From sequence record PP761450.1: DNA of 64,000 nt. One strand, written 5' to 3'. The DNA is from Escherichia phage LHE287. The notes under the pieces were generated by a model, which saw only the letters and a list, made by a program, of their open reading frames with translations, did no database searches and was not told the origin of the DNA. Below, one piece after another: positions 10,932-59,511 of this stretch. Every line of letters starts with the position of its first letter. Position 1 is the first letter of the stretch. Made by a program: the position numbers and the translations under genes.

Positions 10932-11044
10932 GTGGTGTCTCCAGGGTTATATGTGCTGCTATTATAACCCTGGGGACTTCAATAGATTATTGGCGGGTGT
11001 GAGATTTTGCCTGACCGATAATGAGGTCAGTGTGTAGTCCTCAG

Positions 11045-11386
11045 TTATTTCTTCGGAGGTTCAATTGAGGTGAAAGAATCCTTCCAACTCTTGAATTTTT
11101 CAACCAGAGCTTCTTTACCCAGCTCGTCATTTGACACGCTGTGAATATAGGCGAATGCTCCATAGCCGGATCCTGGCATAGCCTTGCAGATGCGCAGACT
11201 GACCAAAGAATCTCCTACGGAAACAAGATAGTGGTCACGACGATTGTTCAGGGCATAATGGTTGTCGTGAAACTTGTCAACAATAACACAGTTCTGAGGT
11301 TCGACGTCAATCGGTAGCCCGTTGGCTTCGGATCCGCCGCGCCCAAGCACGCAGCCTGGGAATAATGTTTCTACGAGTGTAGTCAT
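11045..11386 (-). CDS. Hypothetical small protein, possibly co-chaperonin gp31-like
   Basis: 113 aa; strong RBS AGAAGGAA; sits next to ligase as gene 31 does in T4; YIHSVSND resembles VVHSVGPD of gp31; weak. Confidence 0.4.
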   Translation of the reverse strand: MTTLVETLFPGCVLGRGGSEANGLPIDVEPQNCVIVDKFHDNHYALNNRRDHYLVSVGDSLVSLRICKAMPGSGYGAFAYIHSVSNDELGKEALVEKFKSWKDSFTSIEPPKK

Positions 11387-11640
11387 AGTCTGTTCCTTCT
11401 GTAAGTTCCCATGTATTATATGGGTGAATAGTTTATTGAATTATTTGTTATGAAACCCAGAGCCTTGCGGACTTCTTCACGATTTTTAATTTCGGTCTGA
11501 GCCTCTGTGCGATTAATCTAGCGCTTGTGATGTCGGGAGAGGGCTTTGTAAACAAGCCTTGGCGTCAATGGCATCGATTAGACAACGGATCTCAGCGCAT
11601 CAGAGGCTTGCCCAACAGCCAGTTGAAATACTTGCGCATG

Positions 11641-11965: not shown

Positions 11966-13159
11966 TCATAATTTCCTCAATTTGGCTCTAGTGACCTGAG
12001 TTTGTTTAACGCCGTTGTACTCAGTCAGTTCTTTGACACGACCACGGATGATCATATCGCCCTGCAAGAACTCTGTATCCATATAAGAGGTCTTCCAGGT
12101 AATTGTATTGCCTTCTGCTGTTTTGAAAGTAAACAGGTAACTATCACCATATTCATTGGAGAAGAGAAAGGTGCGCTTGTCGAACCTGACTTGCACTTCC
12201 AGCATTTCACCGACTTCACCCACCCATTTGTTCTCCGCCTTGCGGTCAGTACGAGGACGATGGATGTAATCGTAATACTTCTTGGCACCCCAGCGGACTG
12301 TGTTGTTATCCTTGATGAGGTGATAGCCGGGTTCACACATGCGTTTCAGGCGGACATTGAACTCATTGGATTCGGACAGCGCACTGATGAAGAGCTTCAT
12401 ATGGTACATTTCCGACTCGGCATCTTCACGGTATTCGTGTGCCTTGTTTACGAAATACTCTTCATCGGAACCTGCTTTTGGTTTCTGGTGAGACCGGACA
12501 TAGCCCAGTACTTTGTCAAACAGTTCAGACTTGATATCCACGCCTGCCAGCAACACTTGGAAGCATGCGCGCAGGTAACTGTGGGTGTCGGTGAAGCGCT
12601 CATTTTGGACGCGATATATACCCTCTGGGTCGTCCTCGTCTGGCATGAAGAACTCTTGGATTTCCAGATAGTAAGACATAATCGCGTCAAGGGACTTCTG
12701 ATGAGGCACATAATGATGCATACAGGTGCTACCAATCAGCATCTGGGTATGCGTTTCCTCATTTTCAATCACATACGTGTTCTTGCGACGGATGGCTAGA
12801 TTGCAATGCTGACACCAAGAGACGTTCTCTGTCTCGAAGCGACGGATGAAGTCAGGATTGATGTTGTCGGACAGGCGGTTAAGAATAACCTTTGGATATT
12901 CGTGATTGAACTGACCGATGATCTTCCAGCCACCATAAGAGATGGGGCGGTCAATGCCTTCGCCTTCGAGAGTAACAGGTTTCCACCAGTGAGTAAGGAT
13001 CTCACCAGTGAAGTCGCGGGTGTGGGTTTTGAAGGGTTCACCATAAGTCACGGTCGGAAACGGAACACCCAACCTTTCGGCAGTGCGCTCGAGCTTCTTC
13101 AGTCGCTCAACTACCAACCCTTCATTGTCGATCGGAATATTGAATGTTTTGACGTTCAT
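11966..13159 (-). CDS. Hypothetical protein (397 aa)
   Basis: ATG at 13159 with GAGG RBS, downstream of an early-type promoter; no recognisable motifs. Confidence 0.6.
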   Translation of the reverse strand: MNVKTFNIPIDNEGLVVERLKKLERTAERLGVPFPTVTYGEPFKTHTRDFTGEILTHWWKPVTLEGEGIDRPISYGGWKIIGQFNHEYPKVILNRLSDNINPDFIRRFETENVSWCQHCNLAIRRKNTYVIENEETHTQMLIGSTCMHHYVPHQKSLDAIMSYYLEIQEFFMPDEDDPEGIYRVQNERFTDTHSYLRACFQVLLAGVDIKSELFDKVLGYVRSHQKPKAGSDEEYFVNKAHEYREDAESEMYHMKLFISALSESNEFNVRLKRMCEPGYHLIKDNNTVRWGAKKYYDYIHRPRTDRKAENKWVGEVGEMLEVQVRFDKRTFLFSNEYGDSYLFTFKTAEGNTITWKTSYMDTEFLQGDMIIRGRVKELTEYNGVKQTQVTRAKLRKL

Positions 13160-13202
13160 TTCCAGCCTCATGATGTAGTTGTAACTCTTCAATACAGATT
13201 AA

Positions 13203-13231
13203 ATATTAGGCGATTATTTCTTGAAAGTAAA
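13203..13231 (-). promoter_or_regulatory. Early sigma70-like promoter (TTTACT-N17-TAATAT)
   Basis: -35 TTTACT and -10 TAATAT on the minus strand with a 17-bp spacer, just downstream of a terminator hairpin and upstream of the gene starting at 13159. Confidence 0.45.
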
Positions 13232-13246
13232 GTTATTGAAGTAAAA

Positions 13247-13267
13247 AGCCCAGTACTTGACTGGGCT
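13247..13267 (-). terminator. Intrinsic terminator
   Basis: AGCCCAG / CTGGGCT stem, then TTTTT on the minus strand. Confidence 0.5.
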
Positions 13268-29280: not shown

Positions 29281-30891
29281 ATGTTAGACAATATGAGATG
29301 GTTTTACGGCACCGTTGAAGATGTCAACGATCCAGACCAAAATGGGCGAGTTGCTGTTCGCATATATGGCGTACACACCGACGATCCCGTCCTCCTGCCT
29401 ACGGACAAACTCCCATGGGCGAAGGTACTGATGCCTGCTTCTAACGCCTCCTCTGCTGGTTTAGGTTGGTCTCCAACGGGCATCATTCCTGGTACTGAGG
29501 TTATGGGGTTCGCCCTTGACGAAGCATACCAGAATTTACGCATCACCTGGACTTGGACTGGTTCAAGTCCTACTGATGGTGCCGACACAAACCCACTGGC
29601 TCTCGGGCAGGTCGTTCAATCTGTAGAACGTCAGGCGTACAACGCCGTCACTGACGTTCCTGTGAAACAAGAAGACGAACCACAACCAGATCCACAACCA
29701 CCTGTTGGTGGGTATGATCCAGAGAAGTGGATGACAATCGCTCGTGGCGAATTAGGTATCAAGGAGTATGCCGGAAAGTTCAACAACAACCCGCGCATTA
29801 TAGAATATCACAAGACAACCTCCCTTGGTGCTTCTGAAGATGAAGTGTCGTGGTGTGCGGCGTTCGTGGGTTGGGTTATGATACAGGCTGGATACACGTC
29901 TACACGCTCCGCTCTTGCCCGATCTTACCTTACATGGGGCACTCCACTGTCAGCACCACAATATGGCGCTATCGTAGTCTTCCGGCGTGGTAACAACCCT
30001 ACATTTGGACACGTAGCGTTTGTGCAGAAGTTCGATGCAAACTATGTCTGGTGTATTGGTGGCAACCAATCCGATTCAGTGAAGGTCAGTCGTTTCAGAC
30101 GTTCTTCGGTCTTGGGATATCGTTGGCCTGGTCCTGCTAACACAGCCACAGCCGCGCCTGCGCAGCAGAATGGTAAATGGTCAGAACCTATCCCAGATCG
30201 TACTCCAAAGGAACAACCGACTCCGGCTCCTACTGGGCGAGTACAGGATATTGACAACACTGGAGAAACCATGGTTCCGGCTGCGGGTGGCTCCAAATAC
30301 CCGTACAATAACGTCATGGTGTCCCGAGCTGGGCATATTATGGAAGTGGATGACACCCCTGGTGGTGAACGTCTTCACTGGATGCATAAGTCTGGGTCTT
30401 ACAAGCAAATGTTGCCGGATGGTGATGTGGTCAACAAGTCCGTCAAAGACCACTATGACCTGACGATGTTCAACAAGCGTTATTATGTCGGCGGGGACCA
30501 CAACCTGACGGTCAAAGGAACTGAAGTTCAGCGCAAGACAGGTGAGGTCTATCATTTGCATTCCAACAACTACTCAAATGTGGTTGCGGGCACAGCGCTG
30601 ATGAAATTCAGTGACCTAGCGGAAATGCAAGCGCAGAATATTCTGCGCATTATCTGCGAGACTCTGGAGGTCGGCGGGACATTGAAGGTTCCTAAGATTC
30701 TAACGACTGAGATCATCGCTGACAAACTGACTGTCGCTCAGACGATCAATGGTAACATCATATATGCCGAAGGTGCTGGTCGCGCTTCTTCTCTGTCAGG
30801 TGCAACCCCTGCATCCCCTACGGGTCCGGGTGAGATTGACATCAAGGCAGAATTAAAAGACAATGGTGGTAATTTCGGCACCAAAGAGTAA
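29281..30891 (+). CDS. Baseplate central spike (gp5-like) with CHAP-like peptidase domain and C-terminal beta-helix region
   Basis: N-terminus WFYGTVEDVNDPDQNGRVAVRIYGVHT resembles the gp5 OB-fold domain; central Cys/His region (VSWCAAFVGW...PTFGHVAFV) typical of CHAP-like peptidases. Confidence 0.75.
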   Translation: MLDNMRWFYGTVEDVNDPDQNGRVAVRIYGVHTDDPVLLPTDKLPWAKVLMPASNASSAGLGWSPTGIIPGTEVMGFALDEAYQNLRITWTWTGSSPTDGADTNPLALGQVVQSVERQAYNAVTDVPVKQEDEPQPDPQPPVGGYDPEKWMTIARGELGIKEYAGKFNNNPRIIEYHKTTSLGASEDEVSWCAAFVGWVMIQAGYTSTRSALARSYLTWGTPLSAPQYGAIVVFRRGNNPTFGHVAFVQKFDANYVWCIGGNQSDSVKVSRFRRSSVLGYRWPGPANTATAAPAQQNGKWSEPIPDRTPKEQPTPAPTGRVQDIDNTGETMVPAAGGSKYPYNNVMVSRAGHIMEVDDTPGGERLHWMHKSGSYKQMLPDGDVVNKSVKDHYDLTMFNKRYYVGGDHNLTVKGTEVQRKTGEVYHLHSNNYSNVVAGTALMKFSDLAEMQAQNILRIICETLEVGGTLKVPKILTTEIIADKLTVAQTINGNIIYAEGAGRASSLSGATPASPTGPGEIDIKAELKDNGGNFGTKE

Positions 30892-31432: not shown

Positions 31433-31894
31433 CTACTCCGCCAGGGTGATCACAACCATATTTAAGACTGTGTCGATAGCTCGGCCTGTTTCCTCTTCAT
31501 GGAGGGTTTCGGCGCGGAGGTGCACGTCGGTGATGAAGTTGTCAATATGCATCGAAGTCAGGTACGGGCGGTGCTGGGATAATGGACGGTTGGTCATCAC
31601 ATAATTGCGCAGTGTGTTGAAGTCCTTCTGAGAGCACTCTGTGGTATCGATACGGAGGAAGCGTTCGTTGTGTCTTGTCTTCAACTCAGTTGCTTTCCCG
31701 AGGTAGACCAGAGGTCCATTGCGACCGATACGGAACATGACATCAACAACAGACTTGAAGATTTCGCGTTCAATCAGTGCGGTGGGTGACCAGCAGATCT
31801 CTTCTTTGTCGTCGGCGTACAGGGTGTCGATCACCAGAGGAAGCTGAATGTAACCGAAGTTGTGCAGTGGGTTGGTAAGTACCTTGTTTGTCAT
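31433..31894 (-). CDS. Hypothetical protein
   Basis: 153-aa ORF with ATG start; downstream of an early promoter. Confidence 0.55.
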   Translation of the reverse strand: MTNKVLTNPLHNFGYIQLPLVIDTLYADDKEEICWSPTALIEREIFKSVVDVMFRIGRNGPLVYLGKATELKTRHNERFLRIDTTECSQKDFNTLRNYVMTNRPLSQHRPYLTSMHIDNFITDVHLRAETLHEEETGRAIDTVLNMVVITLAE

Positions 31895-31944
31895 GATATA
31901 GTTCCTGCTTTCAATTTGTGGCGAATGCCAATGAATTACTGGGA

Positions 31945-31973
31945 AGTATAAGCGCAGGGATTATAGAAGTAAA
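31945..31973 (-). promoter_or_regulatory. Early sigma70-like promoter (TTTACT-N17-TATACT)
   Basis: -35 TTTACT and -10 TATACT on the minus strand, 17-bp spacer, directly downstream of the nrdH-side terminator hairpin. Confidence 0.5.
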
Positions 31974-31991
31974 GCCCCTCAATGAGGGGCT
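31973..31991 (-). terminator. Intrinsic terminator hairpin after the glutaredoxin gene
   Basis: AGCCCCTC-AAT-GAGGGGCT perfect 8-bp stem followed by T-rich sequence on the minus strand. Confidence 0.5.
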
Positions 31992-37696: not shown

Positions 37697-38185
37697 TTAG
37701 GCCAGTTTGCTCACCAGAGCTTCAACTGCGTCGGCGCTCAGTTTACCCATTTTGACGTACTGAGCTTTTGCTTCGCCACCAACAGCTTTCACGATGTCGG
37801 TGTTGTCATACCCCTTCTTAGGGAAGACCATCACAGAGAAGGAACCGTTGTTCAGCGGGTTCAGCTGGATGCGACCTTTACCGACTACGATGGTGCCGTA
37901 AGTTTCGGTGTTGGCTTCGACAATGTGGATGTCGTGACCCAGGTTTTTCAGCATACCAACTTTGTCGGCAGTCTTAGCAACCACAGCTTTGTCAACCACA
38001 ACCTGCTCTACCAGGGTGAAGCCGTTTGTCGATTTCACTTTACCGTTCAGCAGGTTCATGAAGGAAGTTTTACCACCAGTGAATCCAGCTGCCTGAGCGA
38101 TGCGGAACATTTCAACTTTAGCAACTTCGGTGTTCAGTTCGAAAGAGATGGTGCCGTTGGTGATCAGAGTTTTGGTAGTAGCCAT
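37697..38185 (-). CDS. Hypothetical early protein (162 aa)
   Basis: ATG at 38185 with RBS; downstream of an early promoter; the track start at 38221 is GTG. Confidence 0.6.
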   Translation of the reverse strand: MATTKTLITNGTISFELNTEVAKVEMFRIAQAAGFTGGKTSFMNLLNGKVKSTNGFTLVEQVVVDKAVVAKTADKVGMLKNLGHDIHIVEANTETYGTIVVGKGRIQLNPLNNGSFSVMVFPKKGYDNTDIVKAVGGEAKAQYVKMGKLSADAVEALVSKLA

Positions 38186-38258
38186 GATGTAATTCCTCAT
38201 AATGTAGTTGGTGCGTTTCACTTTTCATTCGGCGGTGTGTTGTCGCCCTATGTGAACT

Positions 38259-38287
38259 ATAATAGTGCATCATTATTGAAGAGTAAA
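38259..38287 (-). promoter_or_regulatory. Early sigma70-like promoter (TTTACT-N17-TATTAT)
   Basis: -35 TTTACT, 17-bp spacer, -10 TATTAT on the minus strand. Confidence 0.5.
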
Positions 38288-38332
38288 GTCTTTTTCAATA
38301 ATTTTTAAAAATTATTTTTGAAGTATTTTAAA

Positions 38333-38353
38333 AGGCCTCGTCGAATGAGGCCT
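38333..38353 (-). terminator. Intrinsic terminator
   Basis: AGGCCTC / GAGGCCT stem with 7-nt loop, TTTT downstream on the minus strand. Confidence 0.5.
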
Positions 38354-40654: not shown

Positions 40655-40662
40655 TATTTATA
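40655..40662 (-). promoter_or_regulatory. T4-type late promoter TATAAATA
   Basis: Exact TATAAATA on the minus strand upstream of the ATG at 40630. Confidence 0.45.
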
Positions 40663-40678
40663 AGCCCCCGAAGGGGCT
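40663..40678 (-). terminator. Hairpin after the large 1124-aa gene
   Basis: AGCCCCCG-AAGGGGCT inverted repeat between the stop at 40687 and the late promoter. Confidence 0.4.
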
Positions 40679-44136: not shown

Positions 44137-44472
44137 TTATTTTTGAACTTGGGCTACAGACATCGCCCAGAGCGGGAGGGTGTGGGGGTCCAGGGCTTCC
44201 AGTAGATATTCGACGCGCTCTGACATGATACCTTCAGGGAAGTTTACTTCTTCTGGTTCGTTGTTGGCCGTCCAGCCCAGAGATAACCCTTCAGCGTGAT
44301 GAATGATATAAACGAAGTCGCCTGGTTCGTAGTCCTTTTCCATCAGGGCGAAGAAATCTTCCATTTCTTCGTCGGAGAAGTAGTAGATGCGAGGTACGGA
44401 GCCGTCAGCAAAGTGCTCAGCACCCTGGAAGGCAAACATGTCATCGGCGGTGAAGTTCTTGAGTTGTGTCAT
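44137..44472 (-). CDS. Hypothetical early protein (111 aa)
   Basis: ATG at 44472 in the conserved context AGGAACTATATCATG; track start at 44556 is TTG inside the promoter. Confidence 0.5.
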   Translation of the reverse strand: MTQLKNFTADDMFAFQGAEHFADGSVPRIYYFSDEEMEDFFALMEKDYEPGDFVYIIHHAEGLSLGWTANNEPEEVNFPEGIMSERVEYLLEALDPHTLPLWAMSVAQVQK

Positions 44473-44520
44473 GATATAGTTCCTGCTTTTCAAGTTGGTG
44501 TTGTACTGCTTATGGAATGA

Positions 44521-44549
44521 AGTATAGGGAAGGATATTGAAGAAGTAAA
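44521..44549 (-). promoter_or_regulatory. Early sigma70-like promoter (TTTACT-N17-TATACT)
   Basis: -35 TTTACT, 17-bp spacer, -10 TATACT on the minus strand, right after a terminator hairpin. Confidence 0.5.
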
Positions 44550-44563
44550 GGGGCAAAAGCCCC
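44550..44563 (-). terminator. Intrinsic terminator
   Basis: GGGGC-AAAA-GCCCC stem-loop with T-run on the minus strand. Confidence 0.45.
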
Positions 44564-56659: not shown

Positions 56660-57345
56660 CACTCGTTCTCCTTCATCATATTGTCACAGTCAACACGAGT
56701 CTGCTGGAGTTCGCGCGACATGCGAGGATCATCAAGGTTCACGCTCAGATTCGTGGCCAGGTCTTTCAGACCGTTCTGAACCCTGTCTTCAAAGTAATAA
56801 TCGTTCTCAACCAGCCAGGCTCTGAGACCAAGAGCGCGGGTGCGCCATTCCTTCTTCAGGATGCGATCAGAGGTCTGCGTGGCGCTGTATTCGAATACTT
56901 TGACGCACTGGTTGCCATCGTTGATGAGGTTCAGGTGACGGCGGCCTATCTGCACACCCTTCTGTAATGCCGGAGAAGGGAGCGAACGGCACTGTCTTAC
57001 GGTCATTCGGCCTTGGGTGCCCATACGCCCAGTCATGATCAAATCGCCAGCCTCCATGCCTCCACGGTTAAATTCGTCGTCATTGAGGTAGCCTTTGAGG
57101 TTATAGGCTCCCTGTTTGTAACGGTTGAACTCAATTCCGGCATTGACGACAGCGGTGGAGACGTTGCCTGTGTTCCAGAGTTCAGCGAAGTTCTCTATGG
57201 AACCAGACTTGTCGATGGCAACCGCCTGGGAGAACCCAGCACAATAGGAAAGGTCGGACCACAGTTTATCACCTGTGGAGTTCAGCTTGGCAGCGGCGGG
57301 TAATGCCAGACCAGCCAGCACAACCCCGAGGATTAAACGTTTCAT
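56659..57345 (-). CDS. Secreted protein of unknown function
   Basis: ATG at 57345 with AAGGAG RBS; signal peptide MKRLILGVVLAGLALPAAA; track start (57510) overlaps the ParB-like gene. Confidence 0.55.
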   Translation of the reverse strand: MKRLILGVVLAGLALPAAAKLNSTGDKLWSDLSYCAGFSQAVAIDKSGSIENFAELWNTGNVSTAVVNAGIEFNRYKQGAYNLKGYLNDDEFNRGGMEAGDLIMTGRMGTQGRMTVRQCRSLPSPALQKGVQIGRRHLNLINDGNQCVKVFEYSATQTSDRILKKEWRTRALGLRAWLVENDYYFEDRVQNGLKDLATNLSVNLDDPRMSRELQQTRVDCDNMMKENE

Positions 57346-57424
57346 GGCGATTCTCCTTATTTCATTGGATGAAATGATAGGCGGCTCACCATGATGAGTA
57401 AAGGGATTCAATAAACTATCGTAT

Positions 57425-58363: not shown

Positions 58364-58734
58364 AACGTACCCCCGACAGAGATCAAGAACTCTTCTTGCA
58401 TGGTCTTGACCGGGTGGTGGTTGCGGGTTTCGAACATGAAGCCCCAGCCACCGTCGGCGACGTTGCCAAAGGTCTTGACGCCAAAGGACTTCGTCCCGTT
58501 GGAGCAGGAATAGATGTCCAGGACGTATGGGCTACCCTGATTGTCGATCCCACGATTCACGTCGTCTGATACGCAGCGCTCAATCATCTTCCCGTTCTTA
58601 TACAGAACGAGGTCTTGGCCATACGCCTTGAAAGCATAAACACCGTTGGTAGACACTCCGGTGATGACAGGAGGGGCGGAAACAGCAGCAAAGGAAGCGC
58701 CCAGCAGGGCAACAGCGAGGATTAACTTTTTCAT
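58360..58734 (-). CDS. Secreted protein of unknown function
   Basis: ATG at 58734 in CTATATCATG context; signal peptide MKKLILAVALLGASFAAVSA. Confidence 0.55.
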   Translation of the reverse strand: MKKLILAVALLGASFAAVSAPPVITGVSTNGVYAFKAYGQDLVLYKNGKMIERCVSDDVNRGIDNQGSPYVLDIYSCSNGTKSFGVKTFGNVADGGWGFMFETRNHHPVKTMQEEFLISVGGTL

Positions 58735-58793
58735 GATATAGTCTCTTGGTTTCAAATAGACGGGGTAATCATACCCCGCCCAAAGTTATAGAA

Positions 58794-59033
58794 TTAACTG
58801 ATGTGCTTCAGAAGAGCGAAGAGGATCGCGGCCTTGGCCTTTACCTTTCCTACGATGCCTGTTTCGACATCAACTTCTTCAGCAACCCACTCTTTTCCCT
58901 TCTTGCTGATGATAACGTCACGACGCTGTGCGTAGACTTCTTTGGTCGCATACACACGGCGGAACCCTTTAGCGCGGAGCAATCCCCAATTGCGATCAAT
59001 TTCTACTGAGGTTTCTACCATTTTGTTCTTCAT
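58794..59033 (-). CDS. Hypothetical small early protein
   Basis: 79-aa ORF downstream of copy 1 of the duplicated promoter cassette. Confidence 0.5.
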   Translation of the reverse strand: MKNKMVETSVEIDRNWGLLRAKGFRRVYATKEVYAQRRDVIISKKGKEWVAEEVDVETGIVGKVKAKAAILFALLKHIS

Positions 59034-59083
59034 GATATAATCTTACCTTTCAACCCGGTGAACCCATCGTTCGCCAGTTATTG

Positions 59084-59137
59084 AATAATACGCATTTACC
59101 TTATAGAAGTAAACCCCTAAAAGTAAAAATCCCCAAC
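59084..59137. repeat. Copy 1 of a 54-bp direct repeat (early promoter plus start of terminator hairpin)
   Basis: Identical 54-mer aataatacgcatttaccttatagaagtaaacccctaaaagtaaaaatccccaac also at 59440-59493. Confidence 0.85.
59085..59113 (-). promoter_or_regulatory. Early sigma70-like promoter (TTTACT-N17-TATTAT), copy 1
   Basis: -35 TTTACT, 17-bp spacer, -10 TATTAT on the minus strand. Confidence 0.5.
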
Positions 59138-59148
59138 AAACGTTGGGG
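59131..59148 (-). terminator. Intrinsic terminator (copy 1)
   Basis: CCCCAAC / GTTGGGG stem followed by ATTTTTAC on the minus strand. Confidence 0.5.
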
Positions 59149-59166
59149 ATTTAATAAAAGTTATGC

Positions 59167-59391
59167 CTATTTAATTTCTCGGCTTGAATTTTCTAGTTCT
59201 AATTTTCTTATAGCGGAAATTCTGCCTTCATCAGTTGCGGGAAACTCCCAAACAGCACGACGCCCATTGTTGGTATCACAACTTGCCAGCCAGCAGAAAT
59301 TAGAGGGGTCCTTAAACAAGACCAACTTCGGATTTCCTAAATTGATGAGGTTAAACGGGGTGAGGTCAACAACACATGATATAGCAGACAT
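59167..59391 (-). CDS. Hypothetical small protein bracketed by duplicated promoter-terminator cassettes
   Basis: 74-aa ORF with ATG start and GAAGG RBS, promoter copy 2 upstream, terminator copy 1 downstream. Confidence 0.5.
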   Translation of the reverse strand: MSAISCVVDLTPFNLINLGNPKLVLFKDPSNFCWLASCDTNNGRRAVWEFPATDEGRISAIRKLELENSSREIK

Positions 59392-59439
59392 AACATATAC
59401 CTTCTTTCAATGAACGGGAACGCCCCGATCTATGAATTC

Positions 59440-59493
59440 AATAATACGCATTTACCTTATAGAAGTAAACCCCTAAAAGTAAAAATCCCCAAC
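59440..59493. repeat. Copy 2 of the 54-bp direct repeat
   Basis: Identical to 59084-59137. Confidence 0.85.
59441..59469 (-). promoter_or_regulatory. Early sigma70-like promoter, copy 2
   Basis: Same -35/-10 elements as copy 1. Confidence 0.5.
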
Positions 59494-59504
59494 GTTTGTT
59501 GGGG
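59487..59504 (-). terminator. Intrinsic terminator (copy 2) after the ACP-like gene
   Basis: CCCCAAC-GTTT-GTTGGGG hairpin then T-run on the minus strand. Confidence 0.5.
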
Positions 59505-59511
59505 ACTTCTG

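What the first reader, a model, noticed from the sequence alone, without database searches (positions are those of the whole stretch)
31945..31991. Recurrent early-promoter plus terminator-hairpin modules upstream of minus-strand genes
At least seven sites share the same layout on the minus strand: a GC-rich hairpin, then TTTAC(T/A), a 17-bp spacer and TAT(A/T)(A/C)T (13203-13267, 21169-21197, 31945-31991, 38259-38353, 44521-44563, 59085-59148, 59441-59504). The -35 element matches the T4 early-promoter GTTTAC box. Genes downstream of these modules (13159, 21100, 31894, 38185, 44472, 59033, 59391) are therefore predicted early genes, and most are of unknown function.
Basis: seen in the sequence. 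Interest (0 to 1): 0.45.

Follow-up and report, generated by a model that had tools for sequence, protein, structure and literature searches.

The report
Phage early promoter–terminator cassettes
These are compact "stop the last transcript, start a new one" signals read by the host RNA polymerase, sitting between genes of a Vi-like (Ackermannviridae) Escherichia phage; they are the same kind of cassette already known from phage T4 and its relatives, so the finding is real but ordinary.

Summary
All seven sites are on the minus strand at the stated coordinates. An eighth site was missed (57374-57402). One site (21169) has no hairpin, and one (13203) has TAATAT as its -10.

The window is an Agtrevirus-like Ackermannviridae phage, 98.7% identical to Escherichia phage vB_EcoM-ZQ1. 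A weight matrix separates exactly eight sites (21-34 bits) from noise (12 bits or less). All eight are intergenic, co-oriented with the genes, and 28-73 nt upstream of a start codon.

Across four genera the -35 is 100% conserved, the -10 is 91% and the spacer only 68%. Six hairpins are stable (z -3.4 to -5.5), with varying loops and compensated stems.

The best reading is host sigma-70 (early-type) promoters fused to terminator hairpins, that is, PeSL-like cassettes as in T4-type phages (T4/PST consensus TTTACW-N17-TAYWAT). As with PeSLs, the cassettes mark points of gene gain, loss and replacement between relatives.

Early timing and terminator activity are inferred, not shown. The Ag3 genome paper already annotated several of these elements individually. 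Novelty: new member of a known kind. Interest is low to moderate.

The parts
31974..31990 (-). Focal module s3: terminator-like hairpin GCCCCTC-ATT-GAGGGGC. With its flanking A3 and T3 the stem reaches 10 bp. The TTT tail is also the first three bases of the -35.
   Evidence: It folds at -19.1 kcal/mol in a 41-nt window, z -4.24. It begins 9 nt after the glutaredoxin stop codon. Klebsiella phage Zahir has GCCCCC/GGGGGC, a compensated stem. Its orthologue is listed as terminator Torf088 in the Ag3 paper.
31968..31973 (-). s3 -35 hexamer TTTACT
   Evidence: It is invariant in all orthologues.
31945..31950 (-). s3 -10 hexamer TATACT, with a 17-nt spacer. The inferred start site is about 7 nt downstream, near 31938.
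   Evidence: TATACT is kept in Ag3, Ds9CZ, Zahir and Det7, while the spacer is largely replaced: TCTATAATCCCTGCGCT here against TTTGAAACACCCTCCCC.
31892..31914 (-). s3 conserved leader and translation-initiation region TTGAAAGCAGGAACTATATCATG, with ATG at 31894. It heads a 153-aa gene (31433-31894).
   Evidence: A 23-nt stretch is identical to that of module s5 (family D7). The gene falls in phrog_3902, unknown function.
13159..13266 (-). Module s1. Hairpin at 13248-13266, then a degenerate TTTTTACTT. The -35 TTTACT is at 13226-13231 and the -10 TAATAT at 13203-13208. ATG is at 13159, with an alternative in-frame ATG at 13171. It heads a 397-aa gene.
   Evidence: -16.8 kcal/mol, z -5.46. The hairpin sequence is replaced but still pairs in Zahir and Det7. 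The orthologous hairpin is Ag3 Torf057.
21100..21197 (-). Module s2, promoter only. The -35 TTTACA is at 21192-21197 and the -10 TATTAT at 21169-21174. ATG is at 21100. It heads a 278-aa gene at the front of the thymidylate synthase / UvsX / gp41 block.
   Evidence: No hairpin upstream (z -0.93). Conserved in four genera. The orthologue is Ag3 Porf069.
38185..38352 (-). Module s4. Hairpin at 38334-38352, followed by an AT-rich stretch. An inverted repeat TTATTGAA-N13-TTCAATAA (38273-38301) brackets the -35 TTTACT at 38282-38287. The -10 TATTAT is at 38259-38264. ATG is at 38185 (alternative 38200). It heads a 162-aa gene.
   Evidence: (-12.2 kcal/mol, z -4.0). It is near-identical in five phages. 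The orthologous hairpin is Ag3 Torf101.
44470..44563 (-). Module s5. The hairpin GGGGC-TTTT-GCCCC at 44550-44563 abuts the -35 TTTACT at 44544-44549. The -10 TATACT is at 44521-44526. The leader and TTGAAAAGCAGGAACTATATCATG region follow, with ATG at 44472. It heads a 111-aa gene.
   Evidence: -14.2 kcal/mol, z -3.44. The stem is conserved and the loop varies (TTTT, TTTC, AAAC, TTCG, AAAA). Across relatives the same cassette is followed by five unrelated first genes.
57345..57402 (-). The -35 TTTACT is at 57397-57402 and the -10 TATCAT at 57374-57379. ATG is at 57345. It heads a 228-aa gene beginning MKRLILGVV.
   Evidence: (23.0 bits). Conserved in Ag3, Det7 and Zahir. No hairpin (z -0.35).
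59033..59149 (-). Module s6. Hairpin at 59130-59149, then a degenerate TTTTTACTTTTAGGGG. The -35 TTTACT is at 59108-59113 and the -10 TATTAT at 59085-59090. ATG is at 59033. It heads a 79-aa gene.
   Evidence: -16.3 kcal/mol, z -4.04. A 73-nt direct repeat is 92% identical to s7 (family D2). The orthologue is Ag3 Porf138.
59391..59505 (-). Module s7. Hairpin at 59486-59505. The -35 TTTACT is at 59464-59469 and the -10 TATTAT at 59441-59446. ATG is at 59391. It heads a 74-aa gene.
   Evidence: -18.5 kcal/mol, z -4.95. The downstream gene is replaced by unrelated genes in Ag3 and Zahir.
58732..58781 (-). A hairpin-and-leader cassette without a promoter: GGGCGGGGTATGATTACCCCGTC-TATTTGAAA-CCAAGAGACTATATCATG. 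It is a chimera of two direct-repeat cassettes. In ZQ1 and Det7 those two cassettes flank a 168-aa ModA-like gene that is absent here.

Best explanation
The window comes from an Agtrevirus-like Ackermannviridae phage. Its eight TTTAC(T/A)-N17-TAnnnT sites are promoters read by unmodified host RNA polymerase carrying sigma-70.

Proposed mechanism:
- Sigma region 4 contacts the TTTACT box. This box has T where the E. coli consensus has G at -33, as in T4 early promoters. Sigma region 2 contacts the -10.
- Transcription starts about 7 nt after the -10. The leaders are roughly 20-65 nt long. Most end in a shared translation-initiation region, TTGAAAG-(A)GGA-ACTATATC-ATG.
- At six of the eight sites a GC-rich hairpin with a U-rich tail lies just after the stop codon of the preceding gene. 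It terminates or attenuates incoming transcripts, so each unit is driven by its own promoter.
- At s3 and s5 the terminator's U-tract and the -35 are the same TTT.

Together, hairpin, promoter, leader and ribosome-binding site form a portable cassette equivalent to the PeSLs (promoter-early stem-loops) of T4-type phages. Like PeSLs, the cassettes are sites where small genes are gained, lost or swapped by recombination between cassette copies.

Shown here: existence of the motif, enrichment, strand and position, cross-genus conservation, hairpin stability with compensated stems, and gene-content breakpoints at the cassettes.

Inferred: recognition by sigma-70 holoenzyme, early timing, termination efficiency, and the recombination mechanism.
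For: Identity of the window: 98.7% identical to Escherichia phage vB_EcoM-ZQ1 and about 92% to Shigella phage Ag3.

Enrichment:
The relaxed pattern gives 8 against 0.16.

Discreteness:
- The weight matrix gives eight hits of 21.4-33.5 bits, and the next best is 12.4 bits.
- Shuffles give 0.38 hits per window at 12 bits or more, and 0.03 at 18 bits or more.

Position:
- All eight are intergenic and on the gene strand, with a 17-nt spacer. The -10 ends 28-73 nt before the ATG.

Conservation across Agtrevirus, Limestonevirus, Taipeivirus and Kuttervirus orthologues:
- The -35 is 282/282 identical, the -10 is 90.8% and the spacer 67.7%.
- T1, A2 and T6 of the -10 are invariant.
- Spacing stays at 16-18 nt.

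Independent members: the whole ZQ1 genome has 11 sites of 21 bits or more, all on one strand. Three of them were not in the training set and score 29-31 bits.

Hairpins:
- z scores run from -3.4 to -5.5.
- Loops vary while stems are kept or compensated.
- Orthologues of four of them were listed as rho-independent terminators in the Ag3 paper.

Parallel with T4:
- T4 has GTTTAC at -36 to -31 (PMC1524935).
- TTTAC[AT]-N17-TA[CT][AT]AT occurs 10 times on the early-gene strand and 0 on the other in T4 1-50 kb.
- The published T4/PST PeSL consensus is TTTACW-N17-TAYWAT, with the stem-loop just upstream of the promoter.

Cassette behaviour:
- A 73-nt repeat is 92% identical between s6 and s7.
- s5 is 90-94% identical over 47-61 nt to two ZQ1 cassettes at other loci.
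- First-gene replacements or insertions occur at s3, s5 and s7.
- In IMG/VR the same cassette is followed by 5 or by 4 unrelated gene families, and one gene family sits behind two cassette types.
- A chimeric cassette lies exactly where a gene present in ZQ1 and Det7 is missing.

A different motif marks the late genes: TATAAATA at 23114 (+), 51410 (+) and 40662 (-).
Against: - No transcript 5' or 3' ends, reporter assays or in vitro transcription exist for this phage or its family in the searched literature.
- The eight window sites were part of the matrix training set, so their scores are circular. The independent support comes from orthologues, the three extra ZQ1 sites and the regex statistics.
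- The U-tracts at s3 and s5 (UUUACUUCU) and at s4 (UUUUAAAA) are short for efficient intrinsic termination. The scan tool did not list s3, s4 or s5 as minus-strand terminators.
- The sites lack the TGn extended -10 of T4 early promoters. At five of the eight the hairpin or the degenerate box after it occupies the position of an AT-rich UP element. Their strength is therefore unknown.
- About 11 such promoters per genome, all on one strand, cannot account for all early transcription. The plus-strand early block of ZQ1 has none.
- Two of the eight have no hairpin, so the composite layout is not universal.
Confidence: 0.8

Rival explanations
1. The sites are promoters that need a phage-made activator or a modified RNA polymerase (middle class). 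The invariant TTTACT and the partly conserved TCTTCAATAA spacer would then be a factor-binding site rather than a plain sigma-70 -35 box.
For: TTTAC is 100% invariant even though TTGACA would bind sigma-70 better. The spacer proximal to the -35 carries some information. An 8-bp inverted repeat TTATTGAA/TTCAATAA brackets the -35 at s4 and at two ZQ1 cassettes. Several units lead into replication and nucleotide-metabolism genes, which are middle genes in T4.
Against: - All eight have a complete -35/-10 pair at 17 nt, which is sufficient for sigma-70.
- No MotA box (TGCTT near -30) is present in any of them.
- The CBA120 paper reports no MotA or AsiA homologues in this family.
- The same core motif is the T4 early class, not the middle class.
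- A ModA-like ADP-ribosylase gene is present in ZQ1 and Det7 but absent from this window and from the Ag3 region examined. The box is identical in all four.
Confidence: 0.1
2. The hairpins are not terminators. They would be 3'-end stabilisers or processing sites for the upstream mRNA, or DNA-level targets for recombination, and transcription would read through them.
For: The U-tracts at s3, s4 and s5 are short or interrupted. Similar hairpins followed by TTTGAAA and a ribosome-binding site occur without any promoter, for example at 58732-58781. Such hairpins also lie inside the leaders of some orthologous modules. Cassette copies mark recombination joints.
Against: - s1, s6 and s7 have five consecutive U directly after a stem of 11-13 bp.
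- All six sit just after a co-oriented stop codon.
- RB49/phi1 PeSL stem-loops of the same design were shown experimentally to terminate (PMC2839356).
- The two roles are not mutually exclusive.
Confidence: 0.2
3. The repeats are conserved only as recombination linkers or binding sites and have no promoter activity. Their likeness to -35 and -10 boxes would be incidental.
For: Cassette-associated gene shuffling is evident.
Against: Conservation falls on exactly the two hexamers and their spacing, while the sequence between them drifts or is swapped. Modules that share nothing else (s2, s8) keep the same hexamers, spacing, strand and distance to a start codon.
Confidence: 0.04
4. The matches are chance hits in AT-rich intergenic DNA.
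For: Generic sigma-70 scans give as many hits in shuffled sequence as in the real one.
Against: The specific pattern occurs 6-8 times against 0.0-0.16 expected and is entirely strand-specific. It is conserved at orthologous positions in four genera.
Confidence: 0.01

Closest known systems
PeSLs (promoter-early stem-loops) of T4-type phages: RB49/phi1, T4/PST and KVP40/nt-1 (Arbiol et al. 2010, PMC2839356; Comeau et al. 2014, PMC4122927)
   Same: - Intergenic composite of a GC-rich stem-loop placed just upstream of, or overlapping, a sigma-70-like promoter with an N17 spacer.
- A ribosome-binding site and start codon at the 3' end of the cassette.
- Copies repeated around the genome.
- Copies flank small genes of unknown function that are inserted, deleted or replaced between close relatives.
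- The T4/PST consensus TTTACW-N17-TAYWAT is essentially the motif found here.
- Half cassettes with duplicated -35 boxes, as at s1, s6 and s7, are also described for PeSLs.
   Different: - The host family is Ackermannviridae, not the T4-like myoviruses (Straboviridae) where PeSLs were described.
- There are only about 11 per genome, spread through conserved replication and nucleotide-metabolism blocks rather than packed into hyperplastic regions.
- Similarity between copies is high only within subfamilies: s6/s7, and s5 with two ZQ1 copies. Elsewhere it is limited to the hexamers and the translation-initiation region.
- Two members have no stem-loop.
- Mini-circle formation and promoter or terminator activity are untested here.
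T4 early promoters (Pe)
   Same: Both have TTTAC at -35 to -31 with T rather than G at -33, a 17-nt spacer and a TAnnnT -10. Both lie on the early-gene strand in front of small unknown genes.
   Different: - The T4 sites seen in T4 1-50 kb have G at -36 in all ten, against 3 of 8 here.
- The T4 sites usually have a TGG extended -10, which none has here.
- The T4 sites have an AT-rich UP region. Here it is mostly replaced by the hairpin or by the degenerate box that follows it.
- The weight matrix built here recovers only 2 of the 10 T4 sites.
Putative promoters and terminators annotated one by one in Shigella phage Ag3 (Anany et al. 2011, PMC3121705, Table S2)
   Same: These are orthologous elements. 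Porf069 corresponds to s2 and Porf138 to s6. Torf057, Torf088, Torf101 and Torf141 correspond to the hairpins of s1, s3, s4 and s7.
   Different: - Ag3 was searched with TTGACA-N15-18-TATAAT, so nine promoters are tabulated genome-wide.
- s1, s3, s5, s7 and s8 were not called, and s4 was called in a different register.
- The promoters were not recognised as one TTTACT class or as composite cassettes.
- The CBA120 paper states that early promoters could not be identified by informatics.
Intrinsic (rho-independent) terminators
   Same: A GC-rich stem of 7-13 bp followed by a U-rich tail, placed just after a stop codon.
   Different: At s3 and s5 the tail is only UUU before it becomes the -35 box, and s4 has UUUU followed by A's. 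Efficiency is unknown.

Membership tests
Sigma-70 (-35/-10 class) promoter | -35 hexamer matching TTGACA in at least 4 of 6 positions | tested here: met
   TTTACT (4/6) at seven sites and TTTACA (5/6) at one.
Sigma-70 (-35/-10 class) promoter | -10 hexamer with T1, A2 and T6 (TAnnnT) | tested here: met
   TATTAT four times, TATACT twice, TATCAT once and TAATAT once. T1, A2 and T6 are invariant in all 36 orthologous sites.
Sigma-70 (-35/-10 class) promoter | Spacer of 17 +/- 1 nt | tested here: met
   17 nt at 8 of 8 sites, and 16-18 nt in orthologues.
Sigma-70 (-35/-10 class) promoter | Upstream of, and co-oriented with, a gene | tested here: met
   All are intergenic. The -10 ends 28-73 nt before the ATG.
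Sigma-70 (-35/-10 class) promoter | Initiation by sigma-70 holoenzyme | not testable with these tools
   This needs in vitro transcription or 5'-end mapping.
T4-type early promoter | GTTTAC at -36 to -31 | tested here: inconclusive
   TTTAC is present at 8 of 8 sites. G at -36 is present at 3 of 8, with C in the other five.
T4-type early promoter | Extended -10 (TGn, or GT-rich just upstream of -12) | tested here: not met
   No site has TG at -15/-14. Seven of ten T4 sites have TGG there.
T4-type early promoter | A/T-rich UP region upstream of the -35 | tested here: inconclusive
   It is AT-rich at s2, s4 and s8. At s1, s3, s5, s6 and s7 the GC hairpin, or the degenerate TTTACT box that follows it, sits directly upstream of the -35.
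T4-type early promoter | Active immediately after infection without phage protein synthesis | not testable with these tools
   No transcriptome for this family was found in the library.
PeSL (promoter-early stem-loop) cassette | Sigma-70-like promoter combined with a stable stem-loop in the same intergenic element | tested here: met
   Six of eight modules, z -3.4 to -5.5. Two modules have only the promoter.
PeSL (promoter-early stem-loop) cassette | Ribosome-binding site and start codon at the 3' end of a conserved unit of about 100 bp, repeated in the genome | tested here: met
   A shared TTGAA(A/G)...A(T/C)A(T/C)(C/T)ATG region is found at s1, s3, s5, s6 and s7. s6 and s7 are 92% identical over 73 nt. 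s5 is 90-94% identical over 47-61 nt to ZQ1 cassettes at 125118 and 135847. Other pairs share only the hexamers.
PeSL (promoter-early stem-loop) cassette | Associated with insertion, deletion or replacement of small genes between related genomes | tested here: met
   - s5: a 111-aa first gene here, a 91-aa one in other phages.
- s7: three unrelated genes in different phages.
- s3: an extra gene in Det7 and in L004.
- In IMG/VR, 5 and 4 unrelated families follow the same cassette.
- A chimeric cassette lies at a gene deletion.
PeSL (promoter-early stem-loop) cassette | Concentrated in hyperplastic regions | tested here: inconclusive
   s6, s7 and s8 lie in a block of small unknown genes. s1-s5 lie within conserved replication and nucleotide-metabolism blocks.
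PeSL (promoter-early stem-loop) cassette | Recombination between copies produces mini-circles; promoter and terminator activities demonstrated | not testable with these tools
   This needs inverse PCR and reporter assays as in PMC2839356.
Intrinsic terminator | GC-rich hairpin followed at once by a U-tract, downstream of a co-oriented gene | tested here: met
   s1, s6 and s7 have stems of 11-13 bp followed by UUUUU. s3, s5 and s4 have weaker tails (UUUACUU, UUUUAAAA).
T4 middle promoter (MotA-dependent) | MotA box (a/t)(a/t)(a/t)TGCTTtA centred at -30 in place of the -35 | tested here: not met
   No TGCTT occurs in any module.
T4-type late promoter (gp55) | TATAAATA at -13 to -6 with no -35 | tested here: not met
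   None of the eight has it. The motif occurs elsewhere, at 23114 (+), 51410 (+) and 40662 (-).

The most novel reading that the evidence does not exclude
The cassettes may be active mobile regulatory elements of Ackermannviridae rather than passive signals. Recombination between copies, possibly through excised mini-circles as in RB49/phi1, would move small early genes between loci and between genera.

Two features could also reflect a phage-specific way of favouring or timing these promoters: the strictly invariant T at -33, and the TTATTGAA/TTCAATAA inverted repeat around some -35 boxes. The mechanism could be a DNA-binding regulator or a polymerase modification.

The near-identical (95% amino-acid identity) ModA-like gene shared by a Kuttervirus and ZQ1, bounded by cassette repeats, would be one such transfer.
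Probability: 0.2. Interest if true: 0.5.

Novelty: new member of a known kind. Interest (0 to 1): 0.3.

Why it matters
It gives a usable definition of one early-promoter class for Ag3/ViI-like phages: TTTAC(T/A)-N16-18-TA(T/A/C)nnT, about 11 per genome, often fused to a terminator hairpin and a shared leader. The early genome papers on this family found few such promoters or none (PMC3121705, PMC3184105). These phages are widely used as biocontrol and therapy candidates.

It predicts which unknown genes are expressed first. It also extends the PeSL idea of regulatory cassettes as recombination joints beyond the T4-like myoviruses. Finally, it flags specific hot spots where relatives carry different small genes.

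The concept itself is not new. Several of these elements were already annotated individually in Ag3.

Tried and rejected
- Generic sigma-70 and terminator scans of the window showed no enrichment over shuffles, so they are not informative for this class.
- Strand-specific k-mer over-representation did not bring out the motif. It only flagged TATATCAT, the start-codon context.
- An Rfam search at gathering thresholds found no known RNA family in the window.
- Vibrio phage D503, a more distant nrdA/nrdB-containing relative, had no match to the pattern in 42.8 kb. The class is not universal among relatives.
- The weight matrix trained here recovers only 2 of the 10 T4 sites that match the core regex. 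The flanks therefore differ between the two phage groups.
- PHROG and Pfam searches gave no function for the eight first downstream genes and two neighbours.
- I searched for a link between T at -33 and RNA polymerase ADP-ribosylation:
  - The ModA-like gene (phrog_832) is absent from the window and from the Ag3 region examined, yet the box is unchanged.
  - T4 ModA and ModB find nothing significant in the window or in ZQ1.
- Literature searches found no transcriptome or start-site data for Ackermannviridae and no description of PeSLs in this family.
- I considered the TTGAAA leader motif as a general feature of genes in the window. It is essentially confined to the cassettes.
Full report
**What the window is.** A 6-kb stretch around the finding is 98.7% identical to Escherichia phage vB_EcoM-ZQ1. 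It is about 92% identical to Shigella phage Ag3 and to Salmonella phage SKML-39, and it has weaker matches across Ackermannviridae. The annotated relatives show that the minus strand carries replication, recombination and nucleotide-metabolism genes: gp41, UvsX, thymidylate synthase, gp32, NrdAB, primase, gp46/47, gp55 and gp33. A few plus-strand islands hold baseplate genes. GC content is about 49%.

In 300 dinucleotide-preserving shuffles the means are 0.00 and 0.02.
- The relaxed form with TAnnnT occurs 8 times against 0.16 expected.
- A generic TTGACA/TATAAT scan shows no excess at all, so the signal belongs to this particular class.
- Corrections:
  - The -10 at 13203 is TAATAT.
  - 21169 has no hairpin.
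  - At 13203, 59085 and 59441 the TTTACT next to the hairpin is an extra, degenerate copy, and the working -35 lies 11-13 nt downstream.
- An eighth site at 57374-57402 was missed.

**A discrete class.** I built a weight matrix from 36 sites: the window's eight plus their orthologues.
- It gives exactly eight hits of 21.4-33.5 bits in the window, all on the minus strand. The next best hit is 12.4 bits, which is noise level. Locally shuffled sequence gives 0.38 hits per window at 12 bits or more and 0.03 at 18 bits or more.
- The eight window sites were in the training set, so the independent support comes from elsewhere:
  - The whole ZQ1 genome (149 kb) has 11 sites of 21 bits or more, all on one strand.
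  - Three of them (16276, 125118, 135847) are not orthologues of any training site and score 29-31 bits.

**Anatomy.** All eight sites are intergenic and co-oriented with the genes. All have a 17-nt spacer, and the -10 ends 28-73 nt before the ATG.

Six have a GC-rich hairpin that starts 5-30 nt after the stop codon of the previous gene. In 41-51-nt windows these fold at -12.2 to -19.1 kcal/mol, with z from -3.4 to -5.5. The two modules without hairpins give z -0.9 and -0.4. There are three layouts:
- At s3 and s5 the hairpin abuts the -35, so its TTT tail is the start of TTTACT.
- At s1, s6 and s7 the hairpin is followed by TTTTTACTT, then 11-13 nt, then the real -35.
- At s4 the hairpin is 45 nt upstream, with an AT-rich stretch in between.

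Downstream, five modules share a leader end, TTGAA(A/G)-N-(A)GGA-ACTATATC-ATG. The s3 and s5 copies are identical over 23 nt.

**Comparative evidence.** I fetched the syntenic regions of four phages: Ag3 (Agtrevirus), Dickeya phage Ds9CZ (Limestonevirus), Klebsiella phage Zahir (Taipeivirus) and Salmonella phage Det7 (Kuttervirus).
- Each site has an orthologue in at least three of the four phages.
- Between orthologues the -35 is identical in 282 of 282 compared positions. The -10 is 90.8% identical, with T1, A2 and T6 invariant. The spacer is only 67.7% identical, and spacing stays at 16-18 nt. This is the footprint expected of a promoter read through two hexamers.
- Hairpin stems are kept or compensated while loops change.
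  - The s5 loop is TTTT, TTTC, AAAC, TTCG or AAAA on a constant GGGGC/GCCCC stem.
  - The s3 stem is GCCCCTC/GAGGGGC here and GCCCCC/GGGGGC in Zahir.
  - The s1 stem is wholly different in Zahir and Det7 but still pairs.
  - The s7-type stem has a U-A to G-C change in Ag3.

**Relation to known signals.**
- The literature gives GTTTAC at -36 to -31 for T4 early promoters (PMC1524935).
- In T4 1-50 kb the pattern TTTAC[AT]-N17-TA[CT][AT]AT matches 10 times on the early-gene strand and never on the other.
- The T4 sites differ in two ways. They always have G at -36, against 3 of 8 here. They usually have TGG before the -10, which none has here.
- The closest described entity is the PeSL of T4-type phages.
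  - It is a stem-loop with a sigma-70-like early promoter, an AT-rich region, a ribosome-binding site and a start codon.
  - It is repeated about the genome, has experimentally shown promoter and terminator activity, and is implicated in modular gene shuffling (PMC2839356).
  - The T4/PST consensus is TTTACW-N17-TAYWAT (PMC4122927).
- There is no MotA box in any module.
- The T4-type late motif TATAAATA occurs at other places in the window.

**Cassette behaviour.**
- Repeats:
  - s6 and s7 are a 73-nt direct repeat, 92% identical, flanking one small gene.
  - s5 is 90-94% identical over 47-61 nt to two ZQ1 cassettes at distant loci.
- Variable first genes:
  - s5 is followed here and in Ds9CZ by a 111-aa gene, but in Ag3, Zahir and Det7 by an unrelated 91-aa gene.
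  - s7 is followed by three unrelated genes in different phages.
  - Det7 and one IMG/VR genome have an extra gene joined at the s3 leader.
  - Ds9CZ and Det7 have a homing-endonuclease gene in place of the s3 hairpin but keep the promoter.
- IMG/VR scan:
  - A scan for one cassette form found 68 stretches. Most are on 152-161-kb contigs, typically with three to five per genome.
  - Within them one cassette type is followed by five unrelated first-gene families and another by four. One gene family sits behind two different cassette types.
- A deletion joint:
  - ZQ1 and Det7 carry a 168-aa ModA-like gene (phrog_832, E = 4e-16) that this window lacks.
  - In ZQ1 it is flanked by two direct-repeat hairpin-and-leader cassettes.
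  - The window has one chimeric copy at 58732-58781. That is the signature of recombination between cassette copies.
- Mosaic spacer: the s3 spacer differs almost completely from that of Ag3, although the flanks are the same. This suggests exchange inside the module.

**What was already known.** The Ag3 genome paper tabulated nine putative early promoters and 40 terminators.
- Three of its promoters (Porf069, Porf100 in a different register, Porf138) and four of its terminators (Torf057, Torf088, Torf101, Torf141) are orthologues of elements here.
- The CBA120 paper states that early promoters could not be identified informatically and that MotA, AsiA, Alt and ModA homologues were not found.
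- The LIMEstone1 paper reports five T4-like early promoters without listing them in the text.
- I found no transcriptome for the family and no report of PeSLs in it.

**Mechanism and confidence.** The most likely mechanism (0.8) has four parts:
- Unmodified host sigma-70 holoenzyme starts transcription at these sites from the moment of infection.
- The hairpins terminate or attenuate the preceding unit.
- The shared leader provides the translation start.
- The whole cassette doubles as a patch of homology for recombination.

The existence, conservation, structure and breakpoints are shown. Sigma-70 use, timing, termination efficiency and the recombination route are inferred.

Weak points:
- The U-tracts at s3, s4 and s5 are short.
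- The sites lack the TGn and mostly the UP elements that make T4 early promoters strong.
- The class cannot cover all early genes, because the plus-strand early block of ZQ1 has none.

**Verdict.** This is a new member of a known kind, partly annotated already in a relative, and of low-to-moderate interest.

Noticed in passing
window 58732-58781 (-); ZQ1 record 106449-106952; L013 (Det7) 10977-11483: A 168-aa gene annotated as RNA polymerase ADP-ribosylase (phrog_832, E = 4e-16) is present in ZQ1, where it is unannotated and 95% identical at the amino-acid level to Det7 gene 48. It is absent from this window and from Ag3. The window keeps one chimeric copy of the two hairpin-and-leader repeats that flank the gene in ZQ1.
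   Followed up: yes
window 38273-38301 (-): A perfect 8-bp inverted repeat TTATTGAA-N13-TTCAATAA brackets the -35 box of module s4. It is unchanged in five phages of four genera, and the same arrangement occurs at ZQ1 cassettes 16276 and 135847. TTCAATAA or its complement also recurs next to other modules. It could be an operator or just AT-rich promoter context; this is unexplained.
   Followed up: partly
window 27749-27776 (+): A perfect sigma-70 consensus TTGACA-16-TATAAT lies on the plus strand inside the minus-strand ORF 27388-27918, about 190 nt upstream of the gp26 baseplate-hub ATG at 27962. It is conserved in ZQ1, Ag3 and Ds9CZ but was not found in Det7 or Zahir.
   Followed up: partly
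window 40655-40678 (-); also 23114 (+) and 51410 (+): The T4-type late-promoter motif TATAAATA occurs three times. At 40662 it directly follows a hairpin (AGCCCCTTCGGGGGCT), giving a hairpin-plus-late-promoter module that parallels the early ones. At 23114 it precedes gp54.
   Followed up: partly
window 20210-20232 (-): The terminator-like hairpin GGGGCTGCTATAATAGCAGCTCC carries a TATAAT inside its stem. In Ag3 this was annotated both as promoter Porf067 and as terminator Torf069.
   Followed up: no
window 13159-13171 and 38185-38200 (-): Modules s1 and s4 each have two in-frame ATGs, 4-5 codons apart (ACTACAT(C/T)ATGAGG...ATG). The first ATG plus AGG forms the Shine-Dalgarno sequence for the second, so the true start codon is ambiguous.
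   Followed up: no
window, minus strand generally (for example 31892, 44470, 55381, 58732, 59031): The start-codon context TATATCAT(G) occurs 9 times on the minus strand and never on the plus strand. This is an unusually uniform translation-initiation region for a subset of early genes.
   Followed up: partly
L008 (Ds9CZ) 20554-21369; L010 (Det7) 20723-21538: A homing-endonuclease gene sits between the glutaredoxin gene and the s3 promoter in Ds9CZ and Det7. The hairpin is gone, but the promoter starts within a few bases of the endonuclease stop codon.
   Followed up: partly
ZQ1 record 10-48 kb (+), outside the window: The plus-strand early block (DNA polymerase, rIIA/B, topoisomerase) has no TTTACT-class promoter. 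The only candidate is a weak hairpin-plus-TTTTCA-N17-TATTAT site at 30553, upstream of rIIA. Another promoter class must drive this block.
   Followed up: no
window 31951-31967 (-) against L007 (Ag3) 22216-22232: The s3 spacer here and in ZQ1 (TCTATAATCCCTGCGCT) is almost entirely different from that of Ag3 and Ds9CZ (TTTGAAACACCCTCCCC), although both flanks are the same. It resembles the s6/s7 spacer, which suggests exchange between cassettes within the promoter.
   Followed up: partly
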